Counted from the stretch's first letter, positions 2,198 through 51,653 are shown. The stretch is DNA of 64,000 bases from an uncultured Clostridia bacterium (GCA_900019385.1 FIZJ01000007.1:2796-66795); one strand, 5' to 3'. Numbers and translations: made by a program. The notes: generated by a model not told the origin, from the letters alone.

Positions 2198-5100
2198 GTG
2201 GAGGCGGTGAACCTTAAAGAGTTCAAATCTCCGCCAAAGGAATACAGGGCTTCGCCTTTCTGGGCTTGGAATGACCAACTGGACCCGGACGAGCTGCGCC
2301 GGCAGGTGCGGGAACTGAAGCAGCAGTGTTTTGGCGGCTTTTTCATGCATGCCCGGGTAGGCCTAAAGACTGGTTATCTTTCGGAAGCATGGTTTTCATG
2401 TGTGGCGGCAGCCGTCGAAGAAGCCCAGCGGCAGGGTATGGAAGCCTGGCTGTATGATGAGGACCGCTGGCCGAGCGGCTGCGCGGGAGGGCTCGTCACT
2501 GCCGCCAATGATACGTTCAAAGCACGATGGCTGGTTATGCGCCCGGCCGCTTTGGCGGAGATCGGGACACTGCTCTCGGATCCAGATGTTGTGGCCCTGT
2601 TCCGCCTTGTTTTGGATGACGAGGGCCGCCTGATCGATACCGAACGGATTCAGAGCCCCAGCCAGCTGGATGGGCAATACGCGGCTGATCCTCGGGTATC
2701 TTACTGGCAGTTCCGGATGGAGTTTCAAAACCCCACCACCAACTCCAACGGCCATGGATATATCGATGTCCTGAACCCCGAGGCTGTGGCGGAGTTCATC
2801 CGGGTTACCCATGAACAGTATTACCAGCATGTAGGCGGGCACTTTGGCTCAACCATCCCCGGGGTGTTCGCCGATGAGCCCACCTACCGCAGCAAAGCAG
2901 AGGATTCGATCCCTTGGTCGCCGCTGCTTCCTGGTTATTTCCGCAGCGAACACGGCTGCGATCTCATCGATCATCTTCCGCTGCTGTTCTTTGAAGGCGG
3001 CTGCAGCGCCAAAATCCGCTACAGCTTCTACCGCACATTGACCAAAGCCTTTGTGTCCTGTTTTACCAAGCAGATTTACGATTGGTGCGAAGGACGAGGC
3101 TTGCAGTTCACCGGCCATTACTTAAGCGAGGACACACTGGTCAAACAGACCAATGCCATCGGCGCCGCCATGCCTCATTATCGGTACATGCATGCACCGG
3201 GGATCGATCACTTGGGGAACAACATCGCCGACAGCCTGACGCTCAAGCAGTGCGCGTCCGTCGGGAATCAATTCGGCCGCAAGCGCCTGCTCTGCGAAAT
3301 TTTCGGCGTGAGCGGGCATGCCATGACCTTTGAGGATCAGAAATGGATCGCCAATTTCCATTTCGCCCTGGGAATCACCTTCTTGTCGCAGCACTTGGTG
3401 CTCTATTCCATGACCGGCGACCGGAAAAGGGATTATCCGCCCACGTTCAGCTACCATCAGCCTTATTGGCCTTATTATCATAAAATCAATGACTATCTGG
3501 CCAGGGCCGGTTATTTCTGCTCGCAAGGCGATTACATCTGCGACACTCTGGTCCTGCATCCCATAGGCTCGGTCTGGGCCACGTTCGCGAGGCAGAAGGG
3601 GAAGCCCCTTTCCAGTAAGTACGACGCCGGATTGTTCAGGCTGCAGGATAGTTTGTTCAAAAGCCACATTCCCTTTGATTACGGCGATGAACTGATCATG
3701 GAAGACTGTGCCCGAGTGATCGAGGAGGAAGGGCACACCTTCCTGCAGGTTGGAAACGGCAAGTACAGCACAGTGATCGTGCCCCCGTCCTTGACTTGGA
3801 GCCGCAGCACGTACGGCCTGCTCAAAGCGTTCGCCAGCAAGGGAGGGCGGCTGCTCTTCGTCGGCGAAAGGCCGAGCTTGATCGATGGCGAACCAGGAGC
3901 CGGCGAGTGGGAAGAGCTCTGGCAGGAGCAAAGTGTGGCACTGGTTGCAGAAAACGATCCTCAGTCAACCGCAGTACTTAAGCAGTTCTGCCGGCGCCCT
4001 GTCGTGATCAGCGGAAGCGAGGACGGCCACATCTTGTTTCAAGCCCGCCGAGGCGAGGGCTGCTTATATCTGTTCATAACCAATACCAGCAGGGAGGCCG
4101 CTCACACCCTCACGTTGACAGTGCCGATCAAAGGCCGTGTCTACCGGTGCTGTTTTGAAACTGGAGAGATTGCCGAAGTGCAGCCGCGGGAAAAAAGAGA
4201 TCACCTGGAGTTGGAGCTGGTTTTGGCCCCCGCCGGCGCCCACGGGTATATTGTTGCCGAAGCAGAGTTGGAGATGGGCTGCAGCGGTTGGAAACATAGC
4301 GCCGCTGAACTGCGGATTCCTGCCGCAGGAGTGGAAGTGGTACCCTTGAGCAGCCAGTGGCAGTTTGAGCGTGTTCATAAAAACTCAATAACGCTGGATT
4401 ACTGCCGGTATATGATCGAATCCTCCGCTTGCGGTGAATCGGGCCAAGCTGGCTGGAGCGGCAGAATGCCAATCTGGCAGGCACGGCGCCGGCTGTGGCA
4501 CGCTGCGGGGCTCGACTGCTGCCAAGGCATCCAGCCTTGGGCGGTGCTGCCCCATAAAGAACAATTTCAAACACTGCCGGTACGTCTGCAGTTTGAGTTC
4601 TATGCGGACTATCTCCCTGGTGATCTGGGCGTCGTGATCGAAAACAGCCGCCATTGGCAGCTCAAGGTTAACGGTGTTGAGATCAGCACACAAACAGATA
4701 AGTTCCACTGGGACAAGCAGTTTGGGTTGGTGGACATCGCCAAGGCTGCGCGTCGGGGCAGGAACCTGATTGAACTTGCGGGCGGCTTCACATACGGCGT
4801 CGAGATTGAAGAGATTTATCTTGTGGGAGATTTTGCTCTCCGGCAGTGCGGCTATCAGGAATACCGATTGGTGCAGGAGCCCCGGCTTCTTACCGACGGC
4901 AGCTGGGTCTACCAGGGATATCCGTTCTATGCAGGAAACATGGTCTACGCCCAAGAGTTTGATCTGCGGGAAGCGGGCGGCAGCCGCGTCTGGATCAGGC
5001 TCAACCAGCCCAAGGGCACACTGTTCAGGGTGAAGGTGAACAATGGGGAATGGAAGTGCCTCATCTCCCAGCCGTGGGAAGTGGAGATCACCGGTGACTG

Positions 5101-5296
5101 TGTTCCAGGGAAGAACTTGCTGCAAATTGAGGTGGTGGGCTCGCTGCGGAACACATTCGGGCCGCTTCATCACCGCCTGCGGTCGCCGGCTTGGTGCGGG
5201 CCGAAGCAGTTTGAGGATGAATCGAGCTGGGTTGGAAACTATCAGTTTGAAGACTATGGGTTGATCGGCGGCGCTGAGTTGGTGGCGGCAAGATAA
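2198..5296 (+). CDS. Large cytoplasmic glycoside-hydrolase-like protein, CAZy family not assigned
   Basis: 1032-aa ORF with a GTG start; an alternative GTG lies at 2207. No signal peptide. N-terminal FWAWNDQLD motif and a C-terminal beta-sandwich resembling GH2/F5-8-type sugar-binding domains. Gene context is all CAZymes. Confidence 0.45.
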   Translation: MEAVNLKEFKSPPKEYRASPFWAWNDQLDPDELRRQVRELKQQCFGGFFMHARVGLKTGYLSEAWFSCVAAAVEEAQRQGMEAWLYDEDRWPSGCAGGLVTAANDTFKARWLVMRPAALAEIGTLLSDPDVVALFRLVLDDEGRLIDTERIQSPSQLDGQYAADPRVSYWQFRMEFQNPTTNSNGHGYIDVLNPEAVAEFIRVTHEQYYQHVGGHFGSTIPGVFADEPTYRSKAEDSIPWSPLLPGYFRSEHGCDLIDHLPLLFFEGGCSAKIRYSFYRTLTKAFVSCFTKQIYDWCEGRGLQFTGHYLSEDTLVKQTNAIGAAMPHYRYMHAPGIDHLGNNIADSLTLKQCASVGNQFGRKRLLCEIFGVSGHAMTFEDQKWIANFHFALGITFLSQHLVLYSMTGDRKRDYPPTFSYHQPYWPYYHKINDYLARAGYFCSQGDYICDTLVLHPIGSVWATFARQKGKPLSSKYDAGLFRLQDSLFKSHIPFDYGDELIMEDCARVIEEEGHTFLQVGNGKYSTVIVPPSLTWSRSTYGLLKAFASKGGRLLFVGERPSLIDGEPGAGEWEELWQEQSVALVAENDPQSTAVLKQFCRRPVVISGSEDGHILFQARRGEGCLYLFITNTSREAAHTLTLTVPIKGRVYRCCFETGEIAEVQPREKRDHLELELVLAPAGAHGYIVAEAELEMGCSGWKHSAAELRIPAAGVEVVPLSSQWQFERVHKNSITLDYCRYMIESSACGESGQAGWSGRMPIWQARRRLWHAAGLDCCQGIQPWAVLPHKEQFQTLPVRLQFEFYADYLPGDLGVVIENSRHWQLKVNGVEISTQTDKFHWDKQFGLVDIAKAARRGRNLIELAGGFTYGVEIEEIYLVGDFALRQCGYQEYRLVQEPRLLTDGSWVYQGYPFYAGNMVYAQEFDLREAGGSRVWIRLNQPKGTLFRVKVNNGEWKCLISQPWEVEITGDCVPGKNLLQIEVVGSLRNTFGPLHHRLRSPAWCGPKQFEDESSWVGNYQFEDYGLIGGAELVAAR

Positions 5297-6371: not shown

Positions 6372-6416
6372 CGACATAAATAAAACCGCCCTGCGGCCTT
6401 GCGTCGAGGGCGGTTC
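6372..6416 (-). terminator. Rho-independent terminator of the AraC-corrinoid operon (minus strand)
   Basis: AACCGCCCT…AGGGCGGTT stem followed on the minus strand by TTTTATTTAT. Confidence 0.6.
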
Positions 6417-6426
6417 ATCAATTGTT

Positions 6427-7068
6427 TCACGCCATACTGGCACAGGCTTGAACAGCCACTTCCGCGGCGGACGCGGCATCAGGCGCGTAAAGGTCAGCGC
6501 CGATGCTGGCGCGGAATTGGTCGGTGACCGGCGCGCCGCCGATCATGATCTTGACCTTGTCTCTGATTCCCGCTGTTTTGGCGGCCTCCACGATCAGCTT
6601 CATTTCGTTCATGGTGGTTGTCAACAGCGCCGAACAGGCAATAATCTGCGCCTGCTCCTGAACAGCTGTCTCGATAAACTTCTCAACCGGCACATCAATA
6701 CCGAGGTCGATCACTTCGAGGCCTTTGCCTTCCATCATCATCCGCACCAGATTCTTGCCGATGTCATGGAGATCGCCCTTCACGGTGCCCAAGACCACTT
6801 TGCCTTTTGCCTTGACATCGTCCGAGACCAGCAGAGGCTTCAAAAGGGCGGTCCCGGCGTTCATGGCTCTAGCGGCAATCAGGACTTCCGGGACAAAAAT
6901 CTCGTTGTTTTTAAACTTGACACCGACAACGTCCATGCCGGCCATCAGGCCTTTTTCCAGAATCTCCTGGGCTGAAAACCCTTCGTCGATTGCCTGCTGC
7001 ACCAGTTCTTTGACAGCGCTGGCGTTTCCCTGCTGCAGTTTTAGGGAAATCTCATTCAGGATGCTCAT
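6427..7068 (-). CDS. Corrinoid (cobalamin-binding) protein, MtaC/MtbC-like: helical cap plus B12-binding Rossmann domain
   Basis: 213-aa ORF with the DxHxxG cobalamin-ligand motif (GDLHDIGKN) and the downstream glycine-rich MIGGAPV motif. GGAGGG ribosome-binding site. Co-oriented with, and 24 bp downstream of, the AraC gene. Confidence 0.8.
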   Translation of the reverse strand: MSILNEISLKLQQGNASAVKELVQQAIDEGFSAQEILEKGLMAGMDVVGVKFKNNEIFVPEVLIAARAMNAGTALLKPLLVSDDVKAKGKVVLGTVKGDLHDIGKNLVRMMMEGKGLEVIDLGIDVPVEKFIETAVQEQAQIIACSALLTTTMNEMKLIVEAAKTAGIRDKVKIMIGGAPVTDQFRASIGADLYAPDAASAAEVAVQACASMA

Positions 7069-7092
7069 CGTATACCCTCCAATACCAGTGTT

Positions 7093-8322
7093 TTATTTAA
7101 TCTGACCGCGTGTTTCCCTGAACTTGCCTGGAGTGGTTCCGGTCATTTTTTTGAACACCCGTGTGAAATAACTTTGGTCCTCAAACCCTACCAGGCTTGA
7201 TACGTCCGCCAGAGGGATAGCTTCGTTCACCAGCAGGTTTTTGCTCTTCTCGATCCGCACAGTGTTGAGATATGTGGTGAAATTGTAACCTGTTTCTTCC
7301 TTGAACAGCCTGCTGAAATAAGCCGGGCTTAAATGGACGTAGCTGGCTGCATCCTCGAGGGTTAGCCTTTCCATGTAGTTGTTGTTGGTGAATTCAATCG
7401 CCTTATATATTATATCCTTGTTTTTGACATTCTTAAAGTTAAACACACAGTCGGTGAAGCGGGTCAGGATTCTGGAGAGCCAGACGCTCAGCTCCTCAAT
7501 GTTGTGCAGGCGAGACACTTGGTTGAGGTATTGGTTGTTCAGACCGAAGATCTCTTCCTGTTCCGCCCCGCCTTCCATTGCCGCCCGGGAAAGAAGGACC
7601 ACAAGTTCCAACGACCGGTATTTTATATCCTCGAAGTCGTTTTGGCCGGTAAAAAACACGTAGCCCAGGATCTCGTTGAGCACTCGCAGGGATCCGGCTT
7701 TGTCGCCCACGGCCACATGTGAGATCAGCTCATTTTCCTTGTCGATTGGGTAATTCTTGTGTCTCGCCCCACCAAGGTAGGTTTGGGGATCGGAAGCGGG
7801 TATGGGGCTGTCCATAGGATCCGGCAAATGCCGTTTGTCATCTGCGGCTGCGTATCCGGCGAGCAGGTACAACAGTTCAGACAAGCTCGTAACCACATCA
7901 GGCTTGATTACCGGTATCTGATCCATGTGCGCTCTAAGCCGCCGCCGCGCTTTTTGATCCGGGATCTGCTGCTCGATGATTTCATCCAGCAGAAAGGCTT
8001 CCGGTTCTATCATCATCACCGGGCCGCCGACAAAAGCGCCCTTGAACTCCTCGCCGCGGTTGATGGGCGCCACCCAGTGAGTAAGCCCCATCGGGCAGAA
8101 GTAGATGTACCTGCCCCCAAACCGCTCCGCCTGATAACTGCCGTACAAATGGACGTTCGCACAATCGCACAAGTGGGCGAAACCATCCTGGACAGCTTCG
8201 CAGAACGGGCTGCAGCTTTTGAGGGCATGGTAGACAACGGACCCGGCGCCGTCGATAATGAAGCTGGAAACTCCCGTCGCCTTGCTGTAATGATCGATCC
8301 ACTGCCTGATCTCTTGAATCAT
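7093..8322 (-). CDS. AraC-family transcriptional regulator with an N-terminal PocR-type ligand-sensing domain
   Basis: 409-aa ORF. The C-terminal AraC helix-turn-helix pair is recognisable (…LEDAASYVHLSPAYFSRLFKEETG…IPLADVSSLVGFEDQSYFTRVFKKMTGTTP). The N-terminal ~200 aa resemble the PocR sensory domain. Confidence 0.75.
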   Translation of the reverse strand: MIQEIRQWIDHYSKATGVSSFIIDGAGSVVYHALKSCSPFCEAVQDGFAHLCDCANVHLYGSYQAERFGGRYIYFCPMGLTHWVAPINRGEEFKGAFVGGPVMMIEPEAFLLDEIIEQQIPDQKARRRLRAHMDQIPVIKPDVVTSLSELLYLLAGYAAADDKRHLPDPMDSPIPASDPQTYLGGARHKNYPIDKENELISHVAVGDKAGSLRVLNEILGYVFFTGQNDFEDIKYRSLELVVLLSRAAMEGGAEQEEIFGLNNQYLNQVSRLHNIEELSVWLSRILTRFTDCVFNFKNVKNKDIIYKAIEFTNNNYMERLTLEDAASYVHLSPAYFSRLFKEETGYNFTTYLNTVRIEKSKNLLVNEAIPLADVSSLVGFEDQSYFTRVFKKMTGTTPGKFRETRGQIK

Positions 8323-8462
8323 GTGCCCGCCCTTCCTTACCTTTCGGTTATATTCTAAACGATCCTGGAACCGGGATCAATGCGGCCGTGGAAAAAGTGC
8401 AGGGGAAAGGCGCCTTCGAGTAGAATAGACAAACAGGAACAAACCATGAGAGGGGAGACGCT

Positions 8463-9767
8463 ATGGGTTTCAAGCTTCGAGTTGGATTACTGGCAGTATT
8501 ATTGATATTGACATGTTCGCAGTTGGCAGGTGCGCAGTACAGCATTCCTCTCACTTCGCAGCGGGCATTCGAGGTTGCGGACAATATCATCGCCTGGCAG
8601 ACCGAGGCTGGTGGGTGGACCAAGAATACTGACTTCTCAAAGGTCATATACCAGCCGGGCATGTCCAGAGGAGAGCGGGCCATAAACGGCCAGGAAGCCG
8701 GGTGCTTCGACAACAATGCCAGCATCAACGAAATGAAGTTTCTAGCCATGATGTACGCACGGCACGGAATCGAGAAGTATCGGGACGCCGTCATCAAAGG
8801 CATCGACTGGATGCTGGACGCCCAGTACCCAAGCGGTGGCTGGCCGCAGTATTATCCGCTCATCGGCGGTTACCATGACAACGTGACCTTCAATGACGGC
8901 GCCATGATGAATGTGCTCAATTATATACAGGAGATCCTGAGGTACCGCGGGCTGTACGAGTTCTTGGGCGAAGAGCGCTTTGCCCGCCTGGAAGCCGCTT
9001 TGGAAAAAGGCATCGACTATATTCTCAAATCCCAGATCCGAGTCAACGGTTACCTCACAGCCTGGTGCCAGCAGCATGATCCAGTTACGTACGAACCGAA
9101 AATGGGGCGGAGCTATGAGCATCCGTCCATCGTCTCGGCGGAATCGGTCCCGATTGTGGAATTTTTGATGGCTCTGCCCGATCCGTCGGAAGAAGTGCGC
9201 CGGGCGATTGTGGGCGCGGTGGAGTGGTTTGAAATTTCCCAGCTGCCGAACGGCCAGTGGGCACGCTTTTACGATATTCAGTCCAATGTCCCGATCTTTT
9301 CGGGGCGGGACGGGATTATCCGCTATGACGTGAAAGACATCGAACTGGAGCGGCAGCAGGGTTACAGCTGGTTCAACGGCAGCGGCGGCAATCTATTGTC
9401 CAAGGCCCGGCGTGATGGGTACATTGACACGCTGCGGCAAAGCCTGCCCGATTACAAACCCCTCACCATCGATGTCTTCGCTGATCCGGCCGTTCCCAGG
9501 GTCATAAGCCCCAAGATCTGGCCCACTCAGACTGTAAGCGGCGTTCTCGCCGTCGAGGTCGAGATCTCCATGCGCAATCCGGAAAACCTGCGGGAAGTGG
9601 CCATCAAGATCAACAATCAAGAAATCTACCGCGGCAGCGATCTCCACATCCAGGTGCCGGTCGACACCACCGCGTTCCGCAATGGAACTTGCACCATCGC
9701 TGTAGAGACCACGACCACACTCGGGACATCCCTGTCCCACTACGTCAATTTCATTGTGGCAAATTAA
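8463..9767 (+). CDS. Secreted pectate lyase, PL10 family (PelA/Pel-15E type), with an extra C-terminal beta domain
   Basis: 434-aa ORF with a signal peptide (MGFKLRVGLLAVLLILTCSQLAGAQ). Motifs AWQTEAGGWTKN and YPSGGWPQYY are typical of (alpha/alpha)3-barrel PL10 lyases. Confidence 0.7.
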   Translation: MGFKLRVGLLAVLLILTCSQLAGAQYSIPLTSQRAFEVADNIIAWQTEAGGWTKNTDFSKVIYQPGMSRGERAINGQEAGCFDNNASINEMKFLAMMYARHGIEKYRDAVIKGIDWMLDAQYPSGGWPQYYPLIGGYHDNVTFNDGAMMNVLNYIQEILRYRGLYEFLGEERFARLEAALEKGIDYILKSQIRVNGYLTAWCQQHDPVTYEPKMGRSYEHPSIVSAESVPIVEFLMALPDPSEEVRRAIVGAVEWFEISQLPNGQWARFYDIQSNVPIFSGRDGIIRYDVKDIELERQQGYSWFNGSGGNLLSKARRDGYIDTLRQSLPDYKPLTIDVFADPAVPRVISPKIWPTQTVSGVLAVEVEISMRNPENLREVAIKINNQEIYRGSDLHIQVPVDTTAFRNGTCTIAVETTTTLGTSLSHYVNFIVAN

Positions 9768-9780
9768 AACCAGACAACAA

Positions 9781-9825
9781 GGCCAACTTCAAGCCCTGTG
9801 GACTTGCAAGTTGGCCTTTCTTTTT
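9781..9825. terminator. Bidirectional rho-independent terminator between the convergent PL10 and URO-D genes
   Basis: GGCCAACTT-gap-AAGTTGGCC hairpin followed by TTTCTTTTT. It overlaps the stop codon of the minus-strand gene. Confidence 0.6.
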
Positions 9826-10909
9826 ACACCGGCTCTTTCACGGCTTCAAACAGCGCCTCGATATTCGCCGGATCCACATCGGGAAGAATCGCTTCATGGC
9901 TCGGCGAGATAATCAGGCCAGTGGGGAAGATGCGTTTCAACTCCTGCACCTTGTCTTTGACCTGCTTAGGGGTGCCGTTGATCAAGAGCCACTGGGCGTC
10001 CACACCGCCGCAGAAAGAGACTTTGTCGCCGAAATCCCGCTTCAATCTCTCCGGTTCCATGTCTTTGGCCAAGGCCTGAATAGGATGGATGACATCGACG
10101 CCTGCGGCAATCAGATCGGGAATGACGGGATAGATTGATCCACAGGAATGATAAATAACCTTCAACCCGTAACTCTTGGCCTGTTCAATGAATTTCCTGG
10201 TACCCGGCATGACAAATTCCCGTATCGCATCCGGAGAGACCATCAATCCCCGCTGGCTGCCGAAGTCATTGCCGATCAGAATGGCGTCCAGCTTGCCTTT
10301 GGTGGCGCTGTAGAAGATCTCGTTGGCTTCAAGGTAGAACTGGGTGATGCGGTCGATTACAGCCCGGAACATTTCCGGCTCGGTCAGCATCTTCACCAGA
10401 GCGGTTTCCATGCCGAAGGCCGAACAGGCGTCTTGAAAGTGCGCCGACCACAAAACGCCCATGATTGGGTGGCCTGGCGGCGCGGCCTCCACCGCTCGGC
10501 GGCATCGGTCCGGATCAATATGTTTCGCCGGATCGGGCCAGTCGAAGTCATCAACGCGGCTGGGATCGGAATAGTCTTCAAAGAAGCCGGGCGCAGTCAG
10601 AGTCCTTTGATCGGGTGTGTTAGCCTTTTTGGCAAACTGAAGGGCGGTGTAAATCGCCTTGCTGTCGGGGGCGTCATAGGGGATCTCCACCGGATAGATG
10701 TCGTCCCCGATCTTTAGTTTCAGCTCGTCGATATCGCCGACGTCGAAATAGGCAAAGAGCCGTTCGCAGGCTTCCGGCACAGGCAGGCCAAGCCAAGACG
10801 CGGGCCTGTCCACCGGCCTTCTTTCCACTGTGGCGAAAAAACGTTCCTTAGGATCCATGGCATTCTTCCTTTCTCGCAGCAAATACCGGTCACTGAATTG
10901 ATTCACCAT
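9824..10909 (-). CDS. Uroporphyrinogen decarboxylase (URO-D)/MtaA-like family methyltransferase
   Basis: 361-aa ORF. N-terminal KERFFATVERRPVDRP and the HSCG motif (IYHSCGSIYPVIPDLIAAGVDVIHP) are characteristic of URO-D/MtaA/CmuA-family proteins. Confidence 0.72.
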   Translation of the reverse strand: MVNQFSDRYLLRERKNAMDPKERFFATVERRPVDRPASWLGLPVPEACERLFAYFDVGDIDELKLKIGDDIYPVEIPYDAPDSKAIYTALQFAKKANTPDQRTLTAPGFFEDYSDPSRVDDFDWPDPAKHIDPDRCRRAVEAAPPGHPIMGVLWSAHFQDACSAFGMETALVKMLTEPEMFRAVIDRITQFYLEANEIFYSATKGKLDAILIGNDFGSQRGLMVSPDAIREFVMPGTRKFIEQAKSYGLKVIYHSCGSIYPVIPDLIAAGVDVIHPIQALAKDMEPERLKRDFGDKVSFCGGVDAQWLLINGTPKQVKDKVQELKRIFPTGLIISPSHEAILPDVDPANIEALFEAVKEPV

Positions 10910-21454: not shown

Positions 21455-21468
21455 AAGGAGACAGAAGT

Positions 21469-23381: not shown

Positions 23382-24497
23382 ATGCAGTATGCCATGAAGT
23401 ATGTCGAGGACTGGGAGGCTGTCAAAGCCCGCTTTGCGGCCTGGTGGCAGGGAAAGAATCCCGGCCGGCCGCTGATGAGAATTGTCGCCAGGCGGGAACA
23501 GCCCCTTGAAGAGCTGGAGCCCGCTTGGAAAGCGAAGACATTTGTGGACAAACATCTGGAAGTGGAGCGGAAAGTGGTCAACATGCGGAACTACTGCCGC
23601 ACCCGCCGGTTTTTCGCCGAAGCGTTCCCTTCCTTGGATTTGAATATAGGCGCCGGATCGTTCGCCGTTTATCTGGGGCTGGAACCCATTTTTGATCAGA
23701 ACACGGTCTGGTTCCCGGAATGCATCGACGACTGGGACAGCTGGGGAGAATTCCGGTTTGATCCGGACAATCACTGGTGGCAGCGGCATTATCAGGCGAT
23801 CCGGCAGGCGGTGGAGCTCGCTCAAGGGGATTTTCTAGTCAACATCCCTGATATCATCGAAAACCTGGATATTCTCGCCGCCATGCGGGGGGCTCAAAAC
23901 CTCTGCTTAGATTTGATCGACCAGCCGGATGTGATCAAGGCCCGGCTGGAGCAGCTTGACGCTCTGTATTTCCAGTACTATGACCGCTTTTATGATTTGG
24001 TCAAGACTGAGGACGGCGGCAGCAGCTACACGACTTTCAGTATTTGGGGCCCGGGACGGACGGCCAAGATTCAGTGTGATTTTTCCGCCATGATCTCCCC
24101 GGCCCATTTCCGGGAATTTGTCCTGCCGTCCCTCAGGAAACAGTGCCTCAGCCTTGACTGCTCCCTTTACCACCTGGACGGGCCCGACGCAGTCAAGCAC
24201 GTGCCGGCTTTGATGGAAATCGAGGAACTGAACGCTCTGCAGTGGACACCCGGGGCAGGGCAGCCTGACGGAGGCAGCCCTCAATGGTTCCCGATTTATG
24301 ACCAGGTGATCGCCGCCGGCAAGTCATTGTGGATTATGTTCTCCGGGAAGCAGGGCAAATTCGATGATTGGACCGAGGCGGCGGACCGGATAGTGGAGCG
24401 CTACGGCCCGGAGAAACTATACTTCATCTTTCCGGAGATGTCGGAAAAAGAAGCGGAAGCCTTGATGGCGAAAGCAGAACGGGATTGGGCGAGGTAG
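23382..24497 (+). CDS. Divergent URO-D/MtaA-like family protein
   Basis: GGGAGGGA ribosome-binding site. Local similarity to the 9824-10909 protein (CDFSAMISPAHFREFVLPSLRK vs NDFGSQRGLMVSPDAIREFVMPGTRK). The HxxG region is replaced by LYHLDGPDAV. Confidence 0.4.
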   Translation: MQYAMKYVEDWEAVKARFAAWWQGKNPGRPLMRIVARREQPLEELEPAWKAKTFVDKHLEVERKVVNMRNYCRTRRFFAEAFPSLDLNIGAGSFAVYLGLEPIFDQNTVWFPECIDDWDSWGEFRFDPDNHWWQRHYQAIRQAVELAQGDFLVNIPDIIENLDILAAMRGAQNLCLDLIDQPDVIKARLEQLDALYFQYYDRFYDLVKTEDGGSSYTTFSIWGPGRTAKIQCDFSAMISPAHFREFVLPSLRKQCLSLDCSLYHLDGPDAVKHVPALMEIEELNALQWTPGAGQPDGGSPQWFPIYDQVIAAGKSLWIMFSGKQGKFDDWTEAADRIVERYGPEKLYFIFPEMSEKEAEALMAKAERDWAR

Positions 24498-24502
24498 AGG
24501 GT

Positions 24503-25822: not shown

Positions 25823-25829
25823 CAGCGCG

Positions 25830-45749: not shown

Positions 45750-47774
45750 ATGAAGTACGGCGTTTCGTATTATCCGGAACACAAGGATCAGGCTGAAATC
45801 GGCCATGATATCGCCCTGATGAAAGAGTTGGGCGTCAATCTGGCGCGGATGGGCGAGTTCGCCTGGTGCAAGTTTGAACCCCGGGAAGGGGAGTATGACT
45901 TTGCCTGGCTTGACCCAGTGATCGAACAGCTGGGGGAGAACGGGATCCAGACCATTGTCTGCACTCCGACTGCCTGCCCTCCGGCTTGGCTTGTGGAAAA
46001 GCACCCGGAGATCCTTTATGTGGACAACCGGGGAGTGGCCAGGCCCTTTGGCGGCAGGCGGCATTATTGTTACAACAACCCGGTCTATCGAGAGTACTCC
46101 CGCAGGATTGCCGAGGCGGTGGCCGCCCACTATGGGGACAACCCCTACGTTTACGCCTTCCAGATTGACAATGAACTGGCTCAGGAGGGGACAGGCCGGT
46201 GCCGCTGCCCGGTGTGCCGGGAGAAATTCCAGAGATGGCTTGAGGCCAAGTATGGGACGATAACCGAGCTAAACAGGAGAATGGGCACAATCTTCTGGGG
46301 CCAGGTTTATGATCATTTCGGCCAGATCCATCCCCCGGTGAACACTATTGAACCTAACACCGCACAGGCCATCCCCGCTTACTTTGAGAACCCGTCGCTG
46401 CGCCTGGATTTCGAGCGTTTCTGCAGCGAGTCCAATATTGAGTATCAAAACATCCAAAGAGATGCGATCAAAGCATACACCGACAAGCCGACAACCACCA
46501 ACGCCACAGGTTTGGCCACCAACAGCATCGATTATTACAGAGCCTTTCAGAATCTGGATGTGTACGCTTTCGACTATTACCCCAACCTGCGAGAGGGCAT
46601 GATCAGTTCCTTCCCGTATGCCCATGCGCGAGGGGTTTGCAATAAGGACTTCTGGCTGCTGGAGTTCGTTTCCGGCGGCGGCCACGGACTCTGGGGTTCA
46701 GGCAGGCTGCAGCCGTACCCCGGCGCCCTGCGCCAGGCGGCCGTCCATGCCTTCGCCGCCGGAGCGGATTTGGTGGCGCATTTTCAGTTTAGGACCTTCC
46801 CGTTTGGGGCGGAACAGCTGAACTATGCCATCGTGGATATCGACGGGATCCCCAGGCGCCGGTTCTACGAAATGCAGGCCGCCGCCAAGGATCTGAGGCA
46901 GCTTGGCTTGACACTGAAGAATTCCTACTTTGAGAACGAAGTTGCCGTCTTGTTCGATTATGATTCACTGTGGGCGCTGAAGATCAAGCCCATCGCCAAG
47001 GATTTCGACTACGCGCATTTCTGCGGCGAGTTCTACCACCAGCTGACCAGGCTGGGTGTGGGAGTCGATGTGATCTCGTTCGATCACGATCTGGACAAAT
47101 ACAAGGTTGTGATCGTCCCAGCCCCCATGATTATGAGCGAAGCGTTCAAGCGGCGTTTGAAACAATACGTCTACAACGGAGGCGTTTTATTATCCACGTT
47201 TCTTGCGGGGGTGAAAAACCTGGACAATCTGGGGATCACCGAGTCCCTGCCTTGTGGGCTTACTGATCTGTTCGGGATCAGAGTCGGGGAAGTGGAACCG
47301 GTGGTGGAGAGCACAGCCGCCGCTGTCACCCTGGACACCGGCACCGGCTGTGCCCGGGGTATGAACAGGTACTGGGCGGAAACCCTCGAACCAAACGGGG
47401 CGGAGCTGATCGGCACATACACCGGCAACTTCCGGGAAGGTATCGGTGTTATCAGCAAAAACAGCTACGGCAAGGGCACAGCATATTACCTGGGCACAGG
47501 CCTGGAGCCGGATCTTCTGAAAACCCTCTTGAAGAGGGTTGTGGAGGAAGGCGGGGTTGCCGGGCTGCCGTTCGCGGTCCCAGAGGGTGTGGAAGTGCTT
47601 GTGCGGAAGTACAACCACCAAAATTTGTACTGCATCTTCAATTTCTGCAAAGAACCAGCGGCAGTGGAGCTTGAGCGAGCCTACCACGATGTCCTGCGGG
47701 GCGCTGCTGTCGATGGGCTGGCGGAACTGCCGCCGAAAGGGTATCTGTTCTTATTGGAGGAGGGATGGGATTGA
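45750..47774 (+). CDS. GH42 beta-galactosidase (YesZ/BgaB-like)
   Basis: YGVSYYPEH start. Cys cluster GRCRCPVCREK (GH42 Zn site). IDNE acid/base region. AGAGGGGA ribosome-binding site. Confidence 0.85.
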   Translation: MKYGVSYYPEHKDQAEIGHDIALMKELGVNLARMGEFAWCKFEPREGEYDFAWLDPVIEQLGENGIQTIVCTPTACPPAWLVEKHPEILYVDNRGVARPFGGRRHYCYNNPVYREYSRRIAEAVAAHYGDNPYVYAFQIDNELAQEGTGRCRCPVCREKFQRWLEAKYGTITELNRRMGTIFWGQVYDHFGQIHPPVNTIEPNTAQAIPAYFENPSLRLDFERFCSESNIEYQNIQRDAIKAYTDKPTTTNATGLATNSIDYYRAFQNLDVYAFDYYPNLREGMISSFPYAHARGVCNKDFWLLEFVSGGGHGLWGSGRLQPYPGALRQAAVHAFAAGADLVAHFQFRTFPFGAEQLNYAIVDIDGIPRRRFYEMQAAAKDLRQLGLTLKNSYFENEVAVLFDYDSLWALKIKPIAKDFDYAHFCGEFYHQLTRLGVGVDVISFDHDLDKYKVVIVPAPMIMSEAFKRRLKQYVYNGGVLLSTFLAGVKNLDNLGITESLPCGLTDLFGIRVGEVEPVVESTAAAVTLDTGTGCARGMNRYWAETLEPNGAELIGTYTGNFREGIGVISKNSYGKGTAYYLGTGLEPDLLKTLLKRVVEEGGVAGLPFAVPEGVEVLVRKYNHQNLYCIFNFCKEPAAVELERAYHDVLRGAAVDGLAELPPKGYLFLLEEGWD

Positions 47775-50488
47775 TGAAGCAAGCACTGATCCTGACTGGT
47801 GGGGAAGTTGGCAGAAGGATTGAGTTCGGCATCAGCCTGCTTGAGCAGGGACTGGCACAGGCGGGTTATGATGTGAGGCGGGAAACTCTCATCGATCAGT
47901 TCCACAGCTACCGCGGTTTCGACGGCGACAAGATTTACGTTGGCTGCAGAGGCCGGGATCCGTTCATCGCATGGCTCGAAGAACAGGAAGTGCTGCTTTA
48001 CCACGGCCCGGAGCCGGGCAAGGAAGGCTTCTACTTGGAATCCTGCCCAGGGCGGCTCACCGTGGTGGTTGGGGGAGATGATACCGGCACTGTTTACGGC
48101 TGCCGGGAACTGGCAGGCCGCATCGCCCGTGAAGGGTCGCTCCCCACGAACCTGGCCTTCTATGACGCGCCCGCGTTCAAACTGCGGGGACCCTGCCTGG
48201 GGCTGCAGAAAACTAAGATCGAGCCGCCGCGGCTGACGTATGAATACCCGATCACCCCGGATCGGTTCCCCTGGTTCTACGACAAAGAGCTGTGGCGTGT
48301 GTTCCTGGACCGTATGGTGGATTACCGCTGCAACGTGCTCTATTTGTGGAGCGGCCATCCTTTTTCTTCACTGGTCAAGCTCGAAGAGTACCCCGAAGCG
48401 CTGGAAGTCTCGGAAGAGGAGTACGAGCTCAACCGCGCCATGTTCCGCTGGCTGACGGAGGAATGCGACCGCCGGGGGATTTGGGTTGTGCTCAAATTCT
48501 ACAATATCCACATTCCGTACCCCTTTGCCGTAAAGCACGGCCTGGAACAGCGCCAGGCAAGGATTCACCCTTTGGTGGCCGATTACACCGCCAAATCGAT
48601 TGTTGAATTCATCAAATCTTTTCCCAACATTGGACTCATGGTTTGCCTGGGTGAAGCCCTCCGCGGTTACGACAACAAGACCGAATGGTTCGTCAAGACG
48701 ATCATCCCGGCGGTCAAGGAGGGCATGCGGCAAGCTGGGATTGGGGAAGAGCCGCCGATCATCCTCCGGGCTCACGACTGCGATCCTTTCGCTGCGATCG
48801 CAGGGGCCGAAGAGCTTTATTCCAACCTGTACACCATGTGGAAGTACAACGGCGAAAGCCTGACCACCTATTACCCCAGAGGCAGCTGGCAGAGGCAGCA
48901 CAAAGCATTGAGCGGGATGAAGTCGACGCACATCATCAATGTGCATGTTCTGGCCAATCTGGAGCCTTTCCGCTACAACGCCGTGAATTTTATTCAAAAA
49001 AGCATGCAGGCCGCCAAGTACCGACTGGGCGGCAACGGACTGCATTTGTACCCCCTCTTCTATTGGGACTGGCCTTACGCTCCGGACAAGGCTGAACCGA
49101 GAATGCTGCAGCTGGACCGGGACTGGATGTGGTACGAAGCCTGGTTCCGCTATGCCTGGAACCCGGAACGGGATGAAAAGGATGAGTCCCTGTATTGGAC
49201 GAAACGAGTGGGAGAGCATTACCAGATCGACAGCCAAGCCGCCGGACTCCTGGTGGAGGCGATGAACAGCGCCGGGCAGATCGCCCCGAAGATCCTGGGC
49301 AGGATCGGCATCACCGAAGGCAACCGCCAGACGTTCAGCCTGGGTATGACCTTAAGTCAGATCACCAATGTCAACCGCTATGGCCCCAACCGGGAGCTGT
49401 GGCATTCGGTGGCCAGAGCCGGAGAACAGCCCGATGACTACATCACGAAAGAACTGGCAGGCCGGCCCCATGTCGGTGAGACACCTTATGATATGATAGA
49501 AGAAGTGAAGGCCGACGCCGAGGCGGCTTTAAGCAAGTGCGAACAGGCTTTTGGCCTTATTAACGAACCCTGCTTGGAGCTCCGCCGCATCAAGAGCGAT
49601 ATTGAGGCGCTGTACCATCTGACCCGGTTTTATTGTTTCAAACTGGAAGCAGGTATGGAAGTCTTGAAGTACAAGTATACAATGGATGAACAGTTTAGGG
49701 GCGATTTTTCCCTCCTGGACAAAGCCGAAGGGCTGCTGGCCCAGAGCCTTGAGGCCTACAAAAAGCTTACGGCAATCACCGAGCGGACTTATCTTTATGC
49801 CAACAGCCTCCAGACCAGGCACCGCAAAATTCCGTTCCCCGACGGTGAGTTGTATGACCATTGGCGCCAGTGCCTGCCGGAATATGAACGGGAGTATGAG
49901 AACTTCCGCCGCAATATCGCCAGGCTCAAAGCAGGCGATCTGCCCCAGTTCGAGGCTGGTGCCCAATCATCCCTACCGGAAGCCCCGTTCAAGCTGTTGG
50001 GCAGCGACTGCGAGCTGTACAAGGTGGTGAAAGGGGAGAAACTCTTCACAGACGGGGATCAGATTATCTATGATGTGATTAAGCCCTTGGAAGGCCTCAC
50101 AGGCATCCGCATGGCCCATGCCCATGCCCGGAGCGCAGGGTGCAGCATCAAGATCGAACTGCCTGAGGACAGCCAGATTCTGATTGGGTATATCAAAGAA
50201 AGAGATCCAAAATGGCTGCAGGCGCCTGAATTGGAGACCAATGCCCACGCCGACGACCGGGGTGGTGTGAAAGTACGGTTCAAGAACGCAATCAACGCCA
50301 GCAGCTGCCCACCCATTGACATTCACGCTCTCCAGTATGAAAAGGGAGTCCACGAACTATACTTCGGCACAGGCAGCTATCTGGTCGTGGGAGTGATCCC
50401 CAAAGCCGCGAACCTCGACGCTTATGCCGGAAAGCACAAATACGACGGGCCGGAAACCCTCGATTGGCTGTACTACAGTCTAGACTAA
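47774..50488 (+). CDS. Large glycoside-hydrolase-like protein, family unassigned (architecture reminiscent of GH67/GH89/GH115: N-terminal alpha/beta domain + TIM barrel + helical C-terminus)
   Basis: About 904-aa ORF with a GGAGGAGGG ribosome-binding site. No signal peptide. Trp-rich. Located in the CAZyme operon. Confidence 0.35.
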   Translation: MKQALILTGGEVGRRIEFGISLLEQGLAQAGYDVRRETLIDQFHSYRGFDGDKIYVGCRGRDPFIAWLEEQEVLLYHGPEPGKEGFYLESCPGRLTVVVGGDDTGTVYGCRELAGRIAREGSLPTNLAFYDAPAFKLRGPCLGLQKTKIEPPRLTYEYPITPDRFPWFYDKELWRVFLDRMVDYRCNVLYLWSGHPFSSLVKLEEYPEALEVSEEEYELNRAMFRWLTEECDRRGIWVVLKFYNIHIPYPFAVKHGLEQRQARIHPLVADYTAKSIVEFIKSFPNIGLMVCLGEALRGYDNKTEWFVKTIIPAVKEGMRQAGIGEEPPIILRAHDCDPFAAIAGAEELYSNLYTMWKYNGESLTTYYPRGSWQRQHKALSGMKSTHIINVHVLANLEPFRYNAVNFIQKSMQAAKYRLGGNGLHLYPLFYWDWPYAPDKAEPRMLQLDRDWMWYEAWFRYAWNPERDEKDESLYWTKRVGEHYQIDSQAAGLLVEAMNSAGQIAPKILGRIGITEGNRQTFSLGMTLSQITNVNRYGPNRELWHSVARAGEQPDDYITKELAGRPHVGETPYDMIEEVKADAEAALSKCEQAFGLINEPCLELRRIKSDIEALYHLTRFYCFKLEAGMEVLKYKYTMDEQFRGDFSLLDKAEGLLAQSLEAYKKLTAITERTYLYANSLQTRHRKIPFPDGELYDHWRQCLPEYEREYENFRRNIARLKAGDLPQFEAGAQSSLPEAPFKLLGSDCELYKVVKGEKLFTDGDQIIYDVIKPLEGLTGIRMAHAHARSAGCSIKIELPEDSQILIGYIKERDPKWLQAPELETNAHADDRGGVKVRFKNAINASSCPPIDIHALQYEKGVHELYFGTGSYLVVGVIPKAANLDAYAGKHKYDGPETLDWLYYSLD

Positions 50489-50507: not shown

Positions 50508-51653
50508 ATGACTTCAAAAGAAAGAGTGTTGAAAACCATCGCCCATCAGGAACCGGATCGTGTCCCGGTCGGGGAATGGGGCATCGATCACGACCATGTG
50601 AGCAAGATTATCGGCCGTCACACCTATTACCGCAACCGGAAAGATGAAACCATCGCGCTGTGGGAAGGGAGGCGGGACGAAGTTGTTCAAAGCTACAAGG
50701 AAGACTACGAAGAACTGGTGGAAAAGCTGGAGTACGATATCATCACCGTTGACTTGGTCCCTCCCAAGGGTTATGTCCATCCCGATCCGCCTCGAAAGGT
50801 AGGCGACGGAGTTTGGGAAGACTCCCGAGGCAGAATCTACAAGTATGCTGCCAGCAACGACTCGATTGTCTGTGTCGACAACCGGAGCCAGGGGAAAGAG
50901 GCAATCACCGAGGAAGACATCAAGCGGCGCTTCGAGAGGCTGGAGCAGCTTGACGACTCCATCTTTGAGCTGGTGGACTACTTTGGCGGCAAGTATGGGA
51001 AGGAAAAGGCGGTCTTGTTCCGCGGCATCGACATCTACGACACTCTGATGGGAATCTTCGGCGGCAGCCAGGAGCATCAGCTGATCCTGCCGCTGCTTGC
51101 CCCCGATGAGATCAAAAAGATGTACGATTATGCCATCGCCTACAACAAAAAGTTGATCGAACACTGCGCCAGGCACAATGTGCTCATCTGCATGCAGGGC
51201 AAAGACTTCGGCATGAACAACGCCACGATTATGTCCCCTACCGTGATCCGCGACATTTTCGTGCCCCTGATCAAACAGGTAAACGCCTTGACCGAAGCCC
51301 ACGGCATGATTCCGTTCTTCCACTGCTGCGGCAACATCTGGGCCATTCTCGACGATTTTGTGGCGGCAGGGTACAAAGGTTACCAGTCAATCCAGGAGAC
51401 AGCCGGTATGGACACCAGGCTGGTGAAGGAGAAATACGGCGATGTCCTCACCCTCTGGACCGGAATCCAGTGCGAGACTCTGGTTGAGGGCACCATGGAA
51501 CAGGCCGAGGAGGAAGTGCGCCAAAACCTGGAGTTCCTCATGCCCGGCGGCGGGTTCATTTTCGGCTCCACCAACTCGGTGCAGTATGGAGCCAAGACAG
51601 ACAACTACCTCAAAGCGCTGGAAGTGGTGCGGAAATACGGTGCATACCGCTGA
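50508..51653 (+). CDS. URO-D/MtaA-like family methyltransferase
   Basis: N-terminal KERVLKTIAHQEPDRVPV and the HCCG motif (FFHCCGNIWAILDDFVAAGYKGYQ) are typical of uroporphyrinogen-decarboxylase-family methylcobamide transferases. Confidence 0.75.
   Translation: MTSKERVLKTIAHQEPDRVPVGEWGIDHDHVSKIIGRHTYYRNRKDETIALWEGRRDEVVQSYKEDYEELVEKLEYDIITVDLVPPKGYVHPDPPRKVGDGVWEDSRGRIYKYAASNDSIVCVDNRSQGKEAITEEDIKRRFERLEQLDDSIFELVDYFGGKYGKEKAVLFRGIDIYDTLMGIFGGSQEHQLILPLLAPDEIKKMYDYAIAYNKKLIEHCARHNVLICMQGKDFGMNNATIMSPTVIRDIFVPLIKQVNALTEAHGMIPFFHCCGNIWAILDDFVAAGYKGYQSIQETAGMDTRLVKEKYGDVLTLWTGIQCETLVEGTMEQAEEEVRQNLEFLMPGGGFIFGSTNSVQYGAKTDNYLKALEVVRKYGAYR

What the first reader, a model, noticed from the sequence alone, without database searches (positions are those of the whole stretch)
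6427..10909. Corrinoid protein + PocR-AraC regulator + URO-D/MtaA-like methyltransferase inside a plant-glycan locus: candidate cobalamin-dependent sugar O-demethylation system
Seen in sequence: a stand-alone corrinoid protein with the His-on motif GDLHDIGKN is co-transcribed with a PocR-domain AraC regulator. Three uroporphyrinogen-decarboxylase-family proteins, a family that includes methyl-transfer enzymes in corrinoid-dependent systems, lie at 9824-10909 (−), 50508-51653 (+) and, more divergent, 23382-24497 (+). Established knowledge: MtaA-type URO-D-family enzymes together with MtaC-type corrinoid proteins form corrinoid methyltransferase systems, for example methanol:CoM transfer and bacterial O-demethylases. 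Inference: pectin and hemicellulose carry methyl-ether sugars (4-O-methylglucuronate, 2-O-methyl-fucose and 2-O-methyl-xylose of RG-II, 3-O-methyl-rhamnose), and I know of no dedicated demethylation route for them in Gram-positive bacteria. A corrinoid methyltransferase I / corrinoid-protein module among these CAZymes would fit that role. No methyltransferase II (pterin-binding) or reductive activator (RACo) is visible in the window, so they may be encoded elsewhere. Alternative: the corrinoid protein could act with the AraC regulator as a B12- or light-sensing regulatory pair, a split CarH-like logic.
Basis: partly seen in the sequence, partly recalled or inferred. Interest (0 to 1): 0.78.

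Follow-up and report, generated by a model that had tools for sequence, protein, structure and literature searches.

The report
B12 methyl-carrier module inside a pectin locus
A vitamin-B12 methyl-carrier protein and its regulator sit inside a gene cluster for breaking down a complex plant pectin (RG-II), next to three enzymes of the methyltransferase fold; this fits, but does not prove, an unknown route for stripping methyl groups from methylated plant sugars.

Summary
Window 6427-7068(-) encodes a stand-alone corrinoid protein of the methyltransferase type: a cap domain plus a Rossmann B12-binding domain, with the His-on motifs DxHxxG, SxL and GG. Its closest solved structure is the Moorella corrinoid protein 1y80. 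A PocR-AraC activator sits 24 bp upstream on the same strand, and a terminator follows the corrinoid gene, so the two likely form a two-gene operon. There are three URO-D-fold (MtaA/CmuA-like) proteins at 9824-10858(-), 50508-51653(+) and 23382-24497(+). The third was shown by an AlphaFold model that matches MtaA and UROD structures. All of this lies in a large cluster for degrading RG-II, a complex pectin. Across the genus the corrinoid always stays in this cluster. Outside the genus, however, the AraC–corrinoid pair is a widespread Clostridial module found in other contexts, usually with Cys-rich MtaA-like enzymes and a RACo activator. The best current reading: a corrinoid methyl-carrier that, in this genus, was recruited into RG-II breakdown. 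The most likely partner is UroD3, whose zinc site is H-x-D, the pattern of enzymes that act on oxygen methyl groups. Its role may be to remove methyl groups from 2-O-methyl sugars. This is inferred and untested. Confidence is moderate-low.

The parts
6427..7068 (-). Stand-alone MtaC/MttC-type corrinoid (cobalamin) methyl-carrier protein, 213 aa
   Evidence: B12-binding_2 + B12-binding; PDB 1y80 E=5e-61; His-on motif DxHxxG invariant in 30 homologues
7093..8322 (-). PocR-sensor AraC-family activator, first gene of the AraC–corrinoid operon
   Evidence: PocR + HTH_18; TransRegPocR NCBIfam; upstream of the corrinoid in most related loci
7069..7092 (-). 24-bp intergenic region with RBS (GGAGGG) before the corrinoid start codon
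   Evidence: sequence
6382..6400 (-). Intrinsic terminator-like hairpin 27 bp after the corrinoid stop; ends the two-gene operon
   Evidence: terminator scan; sequence
9824..10858 (-). UroD1: URO-D-fold MtaA/CmuA-like protein, 344 aa (alternative upstream start at 10909); zinc motif H-S-C...(S)H; separate transcription unit with its own terminator at 9777-9799
   Evidence: Pfam URO-D; TIGR01463 below cut-off; Zn-site alignment; terminator scan
23382..24497 (+). UroD3: divergent URO-D-fold protein, 371 aa, invariant YHLDG (H-x-D) motif; in a + strand run of RG-II/tetronate genes; candidate corrinoid partner
   Evidence: AF2 model + Foldseek to 4ay8/UROD; Atlas; homologues; complex model 0.87 vs controls 0.00
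50508..51653 (+). UroD2: third URO-D-fold MtaA-like protein (H-C-C...N) at the far end of the cluster
   Evidence: Pfam URO-D E=6e-10; NCBIfam MtaA-like below cut-off; Zn site
2198..5296 (+). GH106 alpha-L-rhamnosidase; its adjacency to the corrinoid is conserved in all four genus members (context)
   Evidence: Pfam
47765..50488 (+). Alpha-D-galacturonidase (RG-II marker enzyme), part of the surrounding RG-II catabolic cluster (context)
   Evidence: NCBIfam NF049878 E=2e-286
8463..9767 (+). PelA-type pectate lyase between the AraC–corrinoid operon and UroD1 (context)
   Evidence: Pfam Pec_lyase E=9e-95

Best explanation
The AraC–corrinoid pair forms a two-gene, substrate-inducible operon.
- The PocR-domain AraC activator senses a small methylated molecule. 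The PocR domain is known to sense small hydrocarbon derivatives, as in MtaR of the Eubacterium limosum methanol operon. The activator drives expression of the corrinoid protein.
- The corrinoid protein is a cobalamin methyl carrier of the MtaC/MttC type. It is reduced to Co(I) by a RACo-type activase encoded elsewhere in the genome (contig C49). It is then methylated by a URO-D-fold methyltransferase I.

In this genus the module has been captured inside an RG-II/pectin catabolic island. There its most plausible methyl donors are the O-methyl sugars of RG-II: 2-O-methyl-L-fucose and 2-O-methyl-D-xylose, whose 2-O-methyl blocks isomerisation by FucI/XylA-type enzymes.
- The best MT-I candidate is UroD3 (23382-24497). 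Its zinc site has the H-x-D pattern seen in O-methyltransferases, and it sits in the RG-II operon.
- UroD1 is a second candidate.
- The methyl would go on to THF, or to homocysteine through the MetH-like Hcy/pterin protein on contig C11.

Shown: the fold and motifs of every part, the operon structure, the conserved co-location within the genus, and the absence of MtaB, MttB and MtrH. Inferred: the substrate, the pairing with UroD3, the acceptor and the sugar O-demethylation itself.
For: - Corrinoid: canonical MT-type fold and motifs.
- Operon: AraC immediately upstream, RBS, terminator after the corrinoid.
- PocR-AraC plus corrinoid mirrors the mtaR–mtaC1 arrangement of acetogen methanol operons (PMC13602510).
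- RG-II context: alpha-D-galacturonidase, BT1020-like, GH29, GH106, FucI, DUF1537 kinase/PdxA-family.
- In all four genus genomes the corrinoid lies in the RG-II cluster next to GH106.
- UroD3 has the URO-D fold and an invariant H-x-D zinc motif. The carboxylate substitution is linked to O-methyltransferases in PMC10418091.
- UroD3-family relatives recur in RG-II-like and sugar loci in other genera.
- A complex model docks the corrinoid's cofactor face (the DxHxxG loop and GGAP) onto UroD3's barrel: 0.87 vs best control 0.00, contact agreement ≥95%, partner pLDDT 93.
- The genome has a RACo.
- The genes appear in anaerobic-digester metatranscriptome contigs.
Against: - Outside this genus the AraC–corrinoid module (70-82% identity, ~80 loci) occurs without RG-II genes. 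There it is usually with Cys-zinc MtaA-like enzymes, RACo, DUF2284 and CobW, which suggests a generic C1 (possibly S- or Se-methyl) function.
- No URO-D gene is co-transcribed with the corrinoid.
- UroD3 relatives elsewhere lack adjacent corrinoid genes.
- G036 lost the AraC but kept the corrinoid.
- No THF-dependent MT-II (MeTr/MtrH) is present.
- The complex-model pass may reflect generic corrinoid–TIM-barrel docking learned from solved MT complexes.
- Aliphatic methyl ethers are harder to cleave than the aryl ethers of known O-demethylases.
- No substrate or activity data.
Confidence: 0.35

Rival explanations
1. Generic C1 module hitch-hiking in the RG-II island. The AraC–corrinoid unit is a widespread Clostridial methyl-transfer module for a small methylated compound (methanol, a methyl-thiol or a methyl-selenide). 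Its partners are Cys-zinc MtaA-like enzymes and RACo. In this genus it merely landed inside the RG-II cluster by recombination, with no functional link to RG-II sugars.
For: - The module is conserved in ~80 loci lacking RG-II genes, usually next to HxC...C MtaA-like enzymes, RACo, DUF2284 and CobW.
- The PocR domain senses small hydrocarbon derivatives.
- A type-1 MGC-like module (corrinoid + HNC...C Mlp + RACo) exists on contig C49 of the same genome. The corrinoid paralogue there is 59% identical.
- The genome has pectin methylesterases releasing methanol.
Against: - The corrinoid stays in the RG-II cluster in all four genus members, despite rearrangement and loss of the AraC in G036.
- Methanol use needs MtaB, which is absent.
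- The nearest URO-D enzymes (UroD1, UroD3) lack the Cys-Cys zinc site of S/Se methyltransferases.
Confidence: 0.3
2. The URO-D-fold proteins of the cluster (UroD1, UroD3) are corrinoid-independent sugar enzymes of the URO-D fold. URO-D itself is a cofactor-free decarboxylase, so these could be, for example, decarboxylases of RG-II acidic sugars such as aceric acid or Dha. The corrinoid protein is unrelated to them.
For: - UroD3- and UroD1-like relatives sit in glycan/sugar loci of other genera without corrinoid genes, sometimes two URO-D-fold genes per sugar operon.
- UroD1's third zinc-site position carries a His that aligns with the His of UROD's C-terminal GHG region.
Against: - Their closest characterised relatives are methyltransferases (MtaA 4ay7/4ay8, TIGR01463) rather than HemE.
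- The H-x-C/D zinc motif is typical of methyltransferases.
- The complex model favours a corrinoid–UroD3 interface.
Confidence: 0.2
3. The corrinoid protein is the cobalamin module of a split methionine synthase. It works with the MetH-like homocysteine/pterin protein on contig C11, and the AraC regulates it.
For: - The genome has a 454-aa Hcy S-methyltransferase plus pterin protein without a B12 domain.
- The corrinoid matches the metH B12 region (NCBIfam E=2e-43).
Against: - The corrinoid scores much better with MtaC/MtgC-type corrinoid models (E=1e-67).
- No MetH activation domain is adjacent.
- PocR-AraC regulation and placement in an RG-II cluster are not expected for methionine synthesis.
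Confidence: 0.1
4. A split CarH-like B12/light-sensing regulatory pair: the corrinoid protein with adenosylcobalamin controls the AraC.
For: The two genes are adjacent and co-directional. The CarH model matches weakly.
Against: - CarH is a single fused MerR-HTH/B12 protein; the TransRegCarH score is 28.5 vs a cut-off of 400.
- The corrinoid is a typical MT-carrier cap+Rossmann protein, best matched by MtaC/MttC/MtgC.
- The AraC already has its own ligand-sensing PocR domain.
Confidence: 0.03

Closest known systems
Acetogen methanol operon mtaR-mtaC1-...-mtaB-mtaC2-mtaA (Eubacterium limosum; PMC13602510)
   Same: - The first gene is a PocR-domain AraC activator (MtaR), followed by a stand-alone corrinoid protein.
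- A URO-D-family MtaA-like MT-II is present.
- Substrate-inducible.
   Different: - No MtaB methanol MT-I in the genome.
- No URO-D gene in the operon.
- Sits in an RG-II sugar cluster.
Phenyl-methyl-ether O-demethylase systems (MtvABC of Moorella; OdmABCD of Acetobacterium; MtoABCD of Methermicoccus; PMC8630106)
   Same: Three parts are shared: a URO-D-superfamily MT-I with a non-Cys (carboxylate) zinc-site substitution (UroD3 H-x-D), a small stand-alone corrinoid protein (~22 kDa) and an ATP-dependent RACo activator.
   Different: - Genes are scattered rather than in one operon; the RACo is on another contig.
- No THF-dependent MT-II.
- The candidate substrates are aliphatic sugar methyl ethers rather than aromatic methoxy groups (inferred).
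Type 1 mlp gene cluster (MGC; Kountz & Balskus, PMC10418091)
   Same: Corrinoid protein, MtaA-like URO-D methyltransferases and a RACE/RACo activator, no MT-II, in anaerobic Bacillota.
   Different: - MGC Mlps have His-Cys-Cys zinc sites; UroD1 and UroD3 do not.
- The window module has an AraC regulator and no RACE.
- The genome's own C49 module fits MGCs better.
Chloromethane CmuAB and CdmBC, and the DCM mec cassette (PMC13222342, bioRxiv 2021.08.30.458270)
   Same: URO-D-superfamily MT-I with a corrinoid protein; the mec cassette has a PocR-domain sensor.
   Different: Halomethane substrates. CmuA is a fused MT/corrinoid protein. The mec sensor is a histidine kinase, not AraC.

Membership tests
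MtaC/MttC/MtgC-type methyltransferase corrinoid protein (TIGR02370) | N-terminal cap (B12-binding_2) plus Rossmann B12-binding domain | tested here: met
   Pfam E=2.4e-21 and 1e-26
MtaC/MttC/MtgC-type methyltransferase corrinoid protein (TIGR02370) | His-on DxHxxG...SxL...GG motifs | tested here: met
   DLHDIG, SAL, GGAP invariant in 30 homologues
MtaC/MttC/MtgC-type methyltransferase corrinoid protein (TIGR02370) | Score above the curated cut-off | tested here: not met
   201.2 vs 215.3 bits, close to it
MtaA/CmuA family methyltransferase (TIGR01463) | URO-D TIM-barrel fold | tested here: met
   UroD1 and UroD2 by Pfam; UroD3 by AF2/Foldseek
MtaA/CmuA family methyltransferase (TIGR01463) | Score above the curated cut-off | tested here: not met
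   UroD1 53 bits, UroD2 25 bits vs 235; UroD3 no hit
MtaA/CmuA family methyltransferase (TIGR01463) | His-Cys-Cys zinc site (S-methyltransferases) | tested here: not met
   UroD1 H-S-C...H; UroD3 H-L-D; UroD2 H-C-C...N; the C49 Mlp has it
Phenolic O-demethylase system (MtvB/OdmB MT-I + corrinoid + MT-II + activator) | URO-D-superfamily MT-I with a carboxylate substitution in the zinc site | tested here: met
   UroD3 invariant YHLDG; criterion from PMC10418091
Phenolic O-demethylase system (MtvB/OdmB MT-I + corrinoid + MT-II + activator) | THF-dependent MT-II (MeTr/MtrH-like) in the system | tested here: not met
   No MtrH; only a MetH-like Hcy/pterin protein
Phenolic O-demethylase system (MtvB/OdmB MT-I + corrinoid + MT-II + activator) | RACo/RamA-type activator | tested here: met
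   Present in the genome on contig C49, not in the window
Phenolic O-demethylase system (MtvB/OdmB MT-I + corrinoid + MT-II + activator) | Activity on methyl ethers | not testable with these tools
   Needs enzyme assays
Type 1 mlp gene cluster (PMC10418091) | Corrinoid + RACE + Mlp2 and Mlp3 with HCC zinc sites, clustered | tested here: not met
   Window module lacks RACE and HCC Mlps; the C49 module partly fits
Acetogen methanol MtaABC operon | MtaB methanol:corrinoid MT-I | tested here: not met
   No PF12176 in the genome
Acetogen methanol MtaABC operon | PocR-AraC (MtaR) first gene followed by a corrinoid gene | tested here: met
   comparison with PMC13602510
CarH-type B12 photoreceptor regulator | Single protein fusing an HTH and a B12 domain | tested here: not met
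   Separate genes; TransRegCarH 28.5 vs cut-off 400

The most novel reading that the evidence does not exclude
Anaerobic Clostridia degrade RG-II with a dedicated cobalamin-dependent sugar O-demethylase. A URO-D-fold MT-I with a carboxylate zinc site (UroD3-type, 23382-24497) moves the 2-O-methyl of 2-O-Me-fucose and/or 2-O-Me-xylose onto a stand-alone corrinoid protein, which a RACo reactivates. The UroD3 family, which recurs in RG-II-like loci of several genera, would be a new class of carbohydrate-active methyltransferases that use a corrinoid protein encoded elsewhere in the genome.
Probability: 0.25. Interest if true: 0.8.

Novelty: new variant of a known kind. Interest (0 to 1): 0.55.

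Why it matters
The methyl-ether sugars of pectin RG-II and of xylan (2-O-Me-Fuc, 2-O-Me-Xyl, 4-O-Me-GlcA) resist fermentation, and no bacterial route to demethylate them is known. The closest gut-Bacteroides work does not report one, and my literature search found none. A corrinoid-dependent ether-cleaving route in digester and gut Clostridia would do three things:
- complete the RG-II degradation pathway;
- explain why B12-dependent methyl-transfer parts sit in pectin loci;
- feed sugar methyl groups into C1 metabolism (acetogenesis or methionine), linking plant-wall breakdown to methyl and B12 economies in anaerobic digesters.
If the rival holds instead, the result is still useful: it would show that a widespread Clostridial PocR-AraC–corrinoid module was captured into a polysaccharide island.

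Tried and rejected
- Rfam scan of the whole window found no cobalamin riboswitch or other RNA family.
- Pfam, NCBIfam and PDB sequence searches did not detect UroD3 as URO-D; only the language-model search and structure prediction did.
- Searched the genome for MtaB, MttB and MtrH: none. Pterin-binding gave only the MetH-like Hcy/pterin protein.
- Laying metatranscriptome contigs cannot show co-transcription: the RNA contigs span the AraC–corrinoid region and neighbours, but contigs do not define transcripts.
- The class-level co-occurrence test is confounded by family: 20 of 23 UroD3-family genomes carry an MtaC-like corrinoid vs 20 of 72 without, but the contrast is mostly between families and absent within family f9. 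I treat it as no evidence.
- Literature search for microbial 2-O-methyl-fucose demethylation found nothing relevant.
- The complex prediction pass is reported as support, not proof. No control with another TIM-barrel partner was possible, and corrinoid–TIM-barrel docking may be learned from solved methyltransferase complexes.
- The CarH-like regulatory-pair alternative was considered and rejected: there is no HTH–B12 fusion, and the corrinoid is a typical MT carrier.


Full report
WHAT IS THERE

The window is 64 kb of a 2.17-Mb, 71-contig genome (97.7% complete) of a Clostridia/Bacillota organism. Its DNA is found in anaerobic-digester and biogas metatranscriptomes. Around the finding lies a large RG-II/pectin catabolic cluster:
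- NF049878 alpha-D-galacturonidase (47765-50488, E=2e-286);
- BT1020-like propeller, MGH1-like GH, GH2, GH29 fucosidase, GH106 rhamnosidase, GH42, GH43, GH31, two pectate lyases;
- fucose isomerase, split transketolases and transaldolase;
- a DUF1537-type four-carbon sugar-acid kinase with a PdxA-family dehydrogenase (tetronate/apionate-type genes; this is an inference from family knowledge);
- ABC transporters, LacI and an FGGY kinase.

THE FINDING'S PARTS

Corrinoid protein (6427-7068, -; 213 aa). It has the B12-binding_2 cap plus a Rossmann B12-binding domain. Its best PDB match is the Moorella corrinoid protein 1y80 (E=5e-61), then the trimethylamine and monomethylamine corrinoid proteins. 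NCBIfam places it with the MtgC/MtbC/pyl_corrinoid methyltransferase corrinoid proteins, just below their cut-offs. The His-on DxHxxG motif (GDLHDIGKN), SxL and GG motifs are invariant in 30 homologues.

AraC regulator (7093-8322, -). It has a PocR sensory domain plus an AraC HTH; NCBIfam best is TransRegPocR. It ends 24 bp before the corrinoid start. There is an RBS, and a strong terminator-like hairpin lies 27 bp after the corrinoid stop, so AraC→corrinoid is most likely a two-gene operon. The Dam-like DNA methyltransferase downstream (5310-6230) is separate and variable within the genus.

URO-D-fold proteins:
- UroD1 (9824-10858, -; 344 aa from the internal Met used by most cluster members): URO-D E=2e-26, MtaA/CmuA-like well below cut-off, weak match to the MtaA-like 4ay7. 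It is a separate transcription unit with its own terminator and is separated from the AraC by the PelA gene on the other strand.
- UroD2 (50508-51653, +): weak URO-D.
- UroD3 (23382-24497, +; the true start is at 23382, not at the upstream TTG at 23139): no HMM hit, but the Atlas language model places it in URO-D clusters, and homologues are named 'trimethylamine corrinoid protein 2'. An AlphaFold2 model built with a 30-sequence MSA (A1; pLDDT 93.5, pTM 0.90) matches 4ay8/4ay7 MtaA-like methyltransferases and UROD structures (Foldseek E~1e-8, TM~0.6).

ZINC SITES

In MtaA-family methyltransferases zinc is bound by His-x-Cys and a downstream Cys. The 4ay7 'LHICGN' and 'APGCG' motifs align to the C49 Mlp. 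Kountz & Balskus (PMC10418091) link His-Cys-Cys to S- or Se-methyltransferases and carboxylate substitutions to O-methyltransferases. In the window:
- UroD1 is H-S-C ... (S)H, with His in place of the third Cys. It belongs to a large Clostridial subfamily with a His there.
- UroD3 has an invariant YHLDG, i.e. H-x-D, a carboxylate at the Cys position.
- UroD2 is H-C-C ... N.
- By contrast, the genome's contig-C49 Mlp is a canonical HNC...C.
This reading of zinc ligands is an inference from alignments.

THE REST OF THE GENOME

The genome has:
- one RACo (AcsV-like) on contig C49, clustered with a second corrinoid protein (59% identical to the window corrinoid), an HNC...C MtaA-like Mlp and a 271-aa protein. 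This is a type-1-MGC-like module.
- five URO-D-fold proteins; those on C18 and C21 have H-x-D zinc sites.
- a MetH-like homocysteine/pterin protein lacking a B12 domain on contig C11.
- three pectin methylesterases.
- no MtaB, MttB or MtrH.

RELATIVES AND CONTEXT

The corrinoid family is strikingly conserved (70-82% identity) in ~80 Clostridial and related MAG loci. In most of them a PocR-AraC lies just upstream. Common neighbours are MtaA/CmuA-like enzymes with Cys-zinc sites, RACo (34 loci), DUF2284, CobW and DUF1638. RG-II genes are absent outside the window's genus. So the AraC–corrinoid pair is a generic methyl-transfer module, not a pectin one.

Within the genus (G034, G036, G037 plus this genome), the picture is different:
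- The corrinoid always lies in the RG-II cluster and always next to GH106.
- One member, G036, has lost the AraC entirely but kept the corrinoid.
- UroD1 and UroD3 orthologues are conserved in the genus.
- UroD1's 37-45% relatives in other genera sit among sugar genes without corrinoid neighbours.
- UroD3's 56-67% relatives also sit without corrinoid neighbours: in an RG-II-like cluster sharing the window's core genes (BT1020-like, MGH1, GH2, PL, Yip1, DUF5696); in a LacI/SBP/permease/PfkB/FGGY sugar operon with a second URO-D; and near GH123/GH2.
- A class-level presence/absence count is confounded by family and is not used as evidence.

COMPLEX MODEL

The corrinoid (A2) and UroD3 (A1) were modelled together: score 0.87 vs best control 0.00, three runs in agreement, partner pLDDT 93. 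Corrinoid residues 55-67, the DLHDIG loop (100-106), 150 and GGAP (179-182) contact UroD3 residues 171-179, 237-242, 272 and 291-293. This is the cofactor face one expects for MT-I/corrinoid docking. It supports binding but does not show it, and may reflect generic docking learned from solved methyltransferase complexes.

HOW IT MOST LIKELY WORKS (inferred)

The PocR-AraC senses a small methylated molecule and switches on the corrinoid gene. The corrinoid, reduced to Co(I) by the genome's single RACo, accepts a methyl from a URO-D-fold MT-I. In this genus the best candidate is UroD3, whose carboxylate zinc site suits an oxygen leaving group. The most plausible donors are the 2-O-methyl sugars of RG-II: their 2-O-methyl group would block FucI/XylA-type isomerisation and so must be removed before catabolism. 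The methyl would then pass to THF, or to homocysteine via the C11 MetH-like protein. None of the chemistry is shown.

RIVALS

- The module is a generic C1 (methanol, methyl-S or methyl-Se) system that hitch-hiked into the island (0.3).
- The URO-D-fold proteins are corrinoid-independent sugar enzymes (0.2).
- The corrinoid serves a split MetH (0.1).
- A CarH-like regulatory pair (rejected, 0.03).

VERDICT

It is countered by the broad non-pectin distribution of the AraC–corrinoid core.

Noticed in passing
window 5310-6230 (-): D12-class N6-adenine DNA methyltransferase (Dam-like, E=3e-51) directly downstream of the corrinoid operon. Present at this spot in G034 but not in G036/G037, suggesting a variable insertion.
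   Followed up: partly
genome contig C49 (L096:1184-5451): A second corrinoid module: corrinoid (59% identical to the window corrinoid), an HNC...C MtaA-like Mlp, a 271-aa protein with a weak MetH-activation-domain match, and an AcsV/RACo activator. It resembles a type 1 mlp gene cluster (methyl-Se/S) and is conserved in G037 contig C50.
   Followed up: partly
genome contig C11 (L095:1429-2793, -): MetH-like protein with homocysteine S-methyltransferase and pterin-binding domains but no B12 domain: a split methionine synthase whose cobalamin partner is not identified.
   Followed up: partly
window 21451-23367 (+): 638-aa protein with no Pfam or NCBIfam hit, directly upstream (15 bp) of UroD3 in the same + strand RG-II operon.
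   Followed up: no
window 24368-26891 (+): SBD_N+NBD_C (DUF1537-type four-carbon acid sugar kinase) and PdxA-family dehydrogenase, typical of tetronate/apionate catabolism; candidate apiose (RG-II) pathway genes.
   Followed up: no
window 11016-13226 (+): Unusual fusion of an FGE-sulfatase (formylglycine-generating enzyme-like) domain with BNR/Asp-box repeats and a MORN repeat in one 736-aa protein.
   Followed up: no
window 9824-10909 (-): UroD1 start ambiguity: a 361-aa ORF from the ATG at 10909 versus the 344-aa form from 10858 used by most identical-cluster members (299 contigs).
   Followed up: yes
genome contigs C8 and C53: Three pectin methylesterase (CE8) genes, yet no MtaB: pectin-derived methanol is probably not used by a canonical methanol methyltransferase.
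   Followed up: partly
genome contigs C18 and C21: Two further URO-D-fold proteins with H-x-D (carboxylate) zinc-site motifs, outside the window; possible additional O-methyltransferase candidates.
   Followed up: partly
genome contig C49 RACo: the genome search reported one TGA inside a 601-aa open frame for the RACo, while the 598-aa ORF at L096:3655-5451 is intact; the stop presumably lies upstream of the true start, but this was not checked.
   Followed up: no
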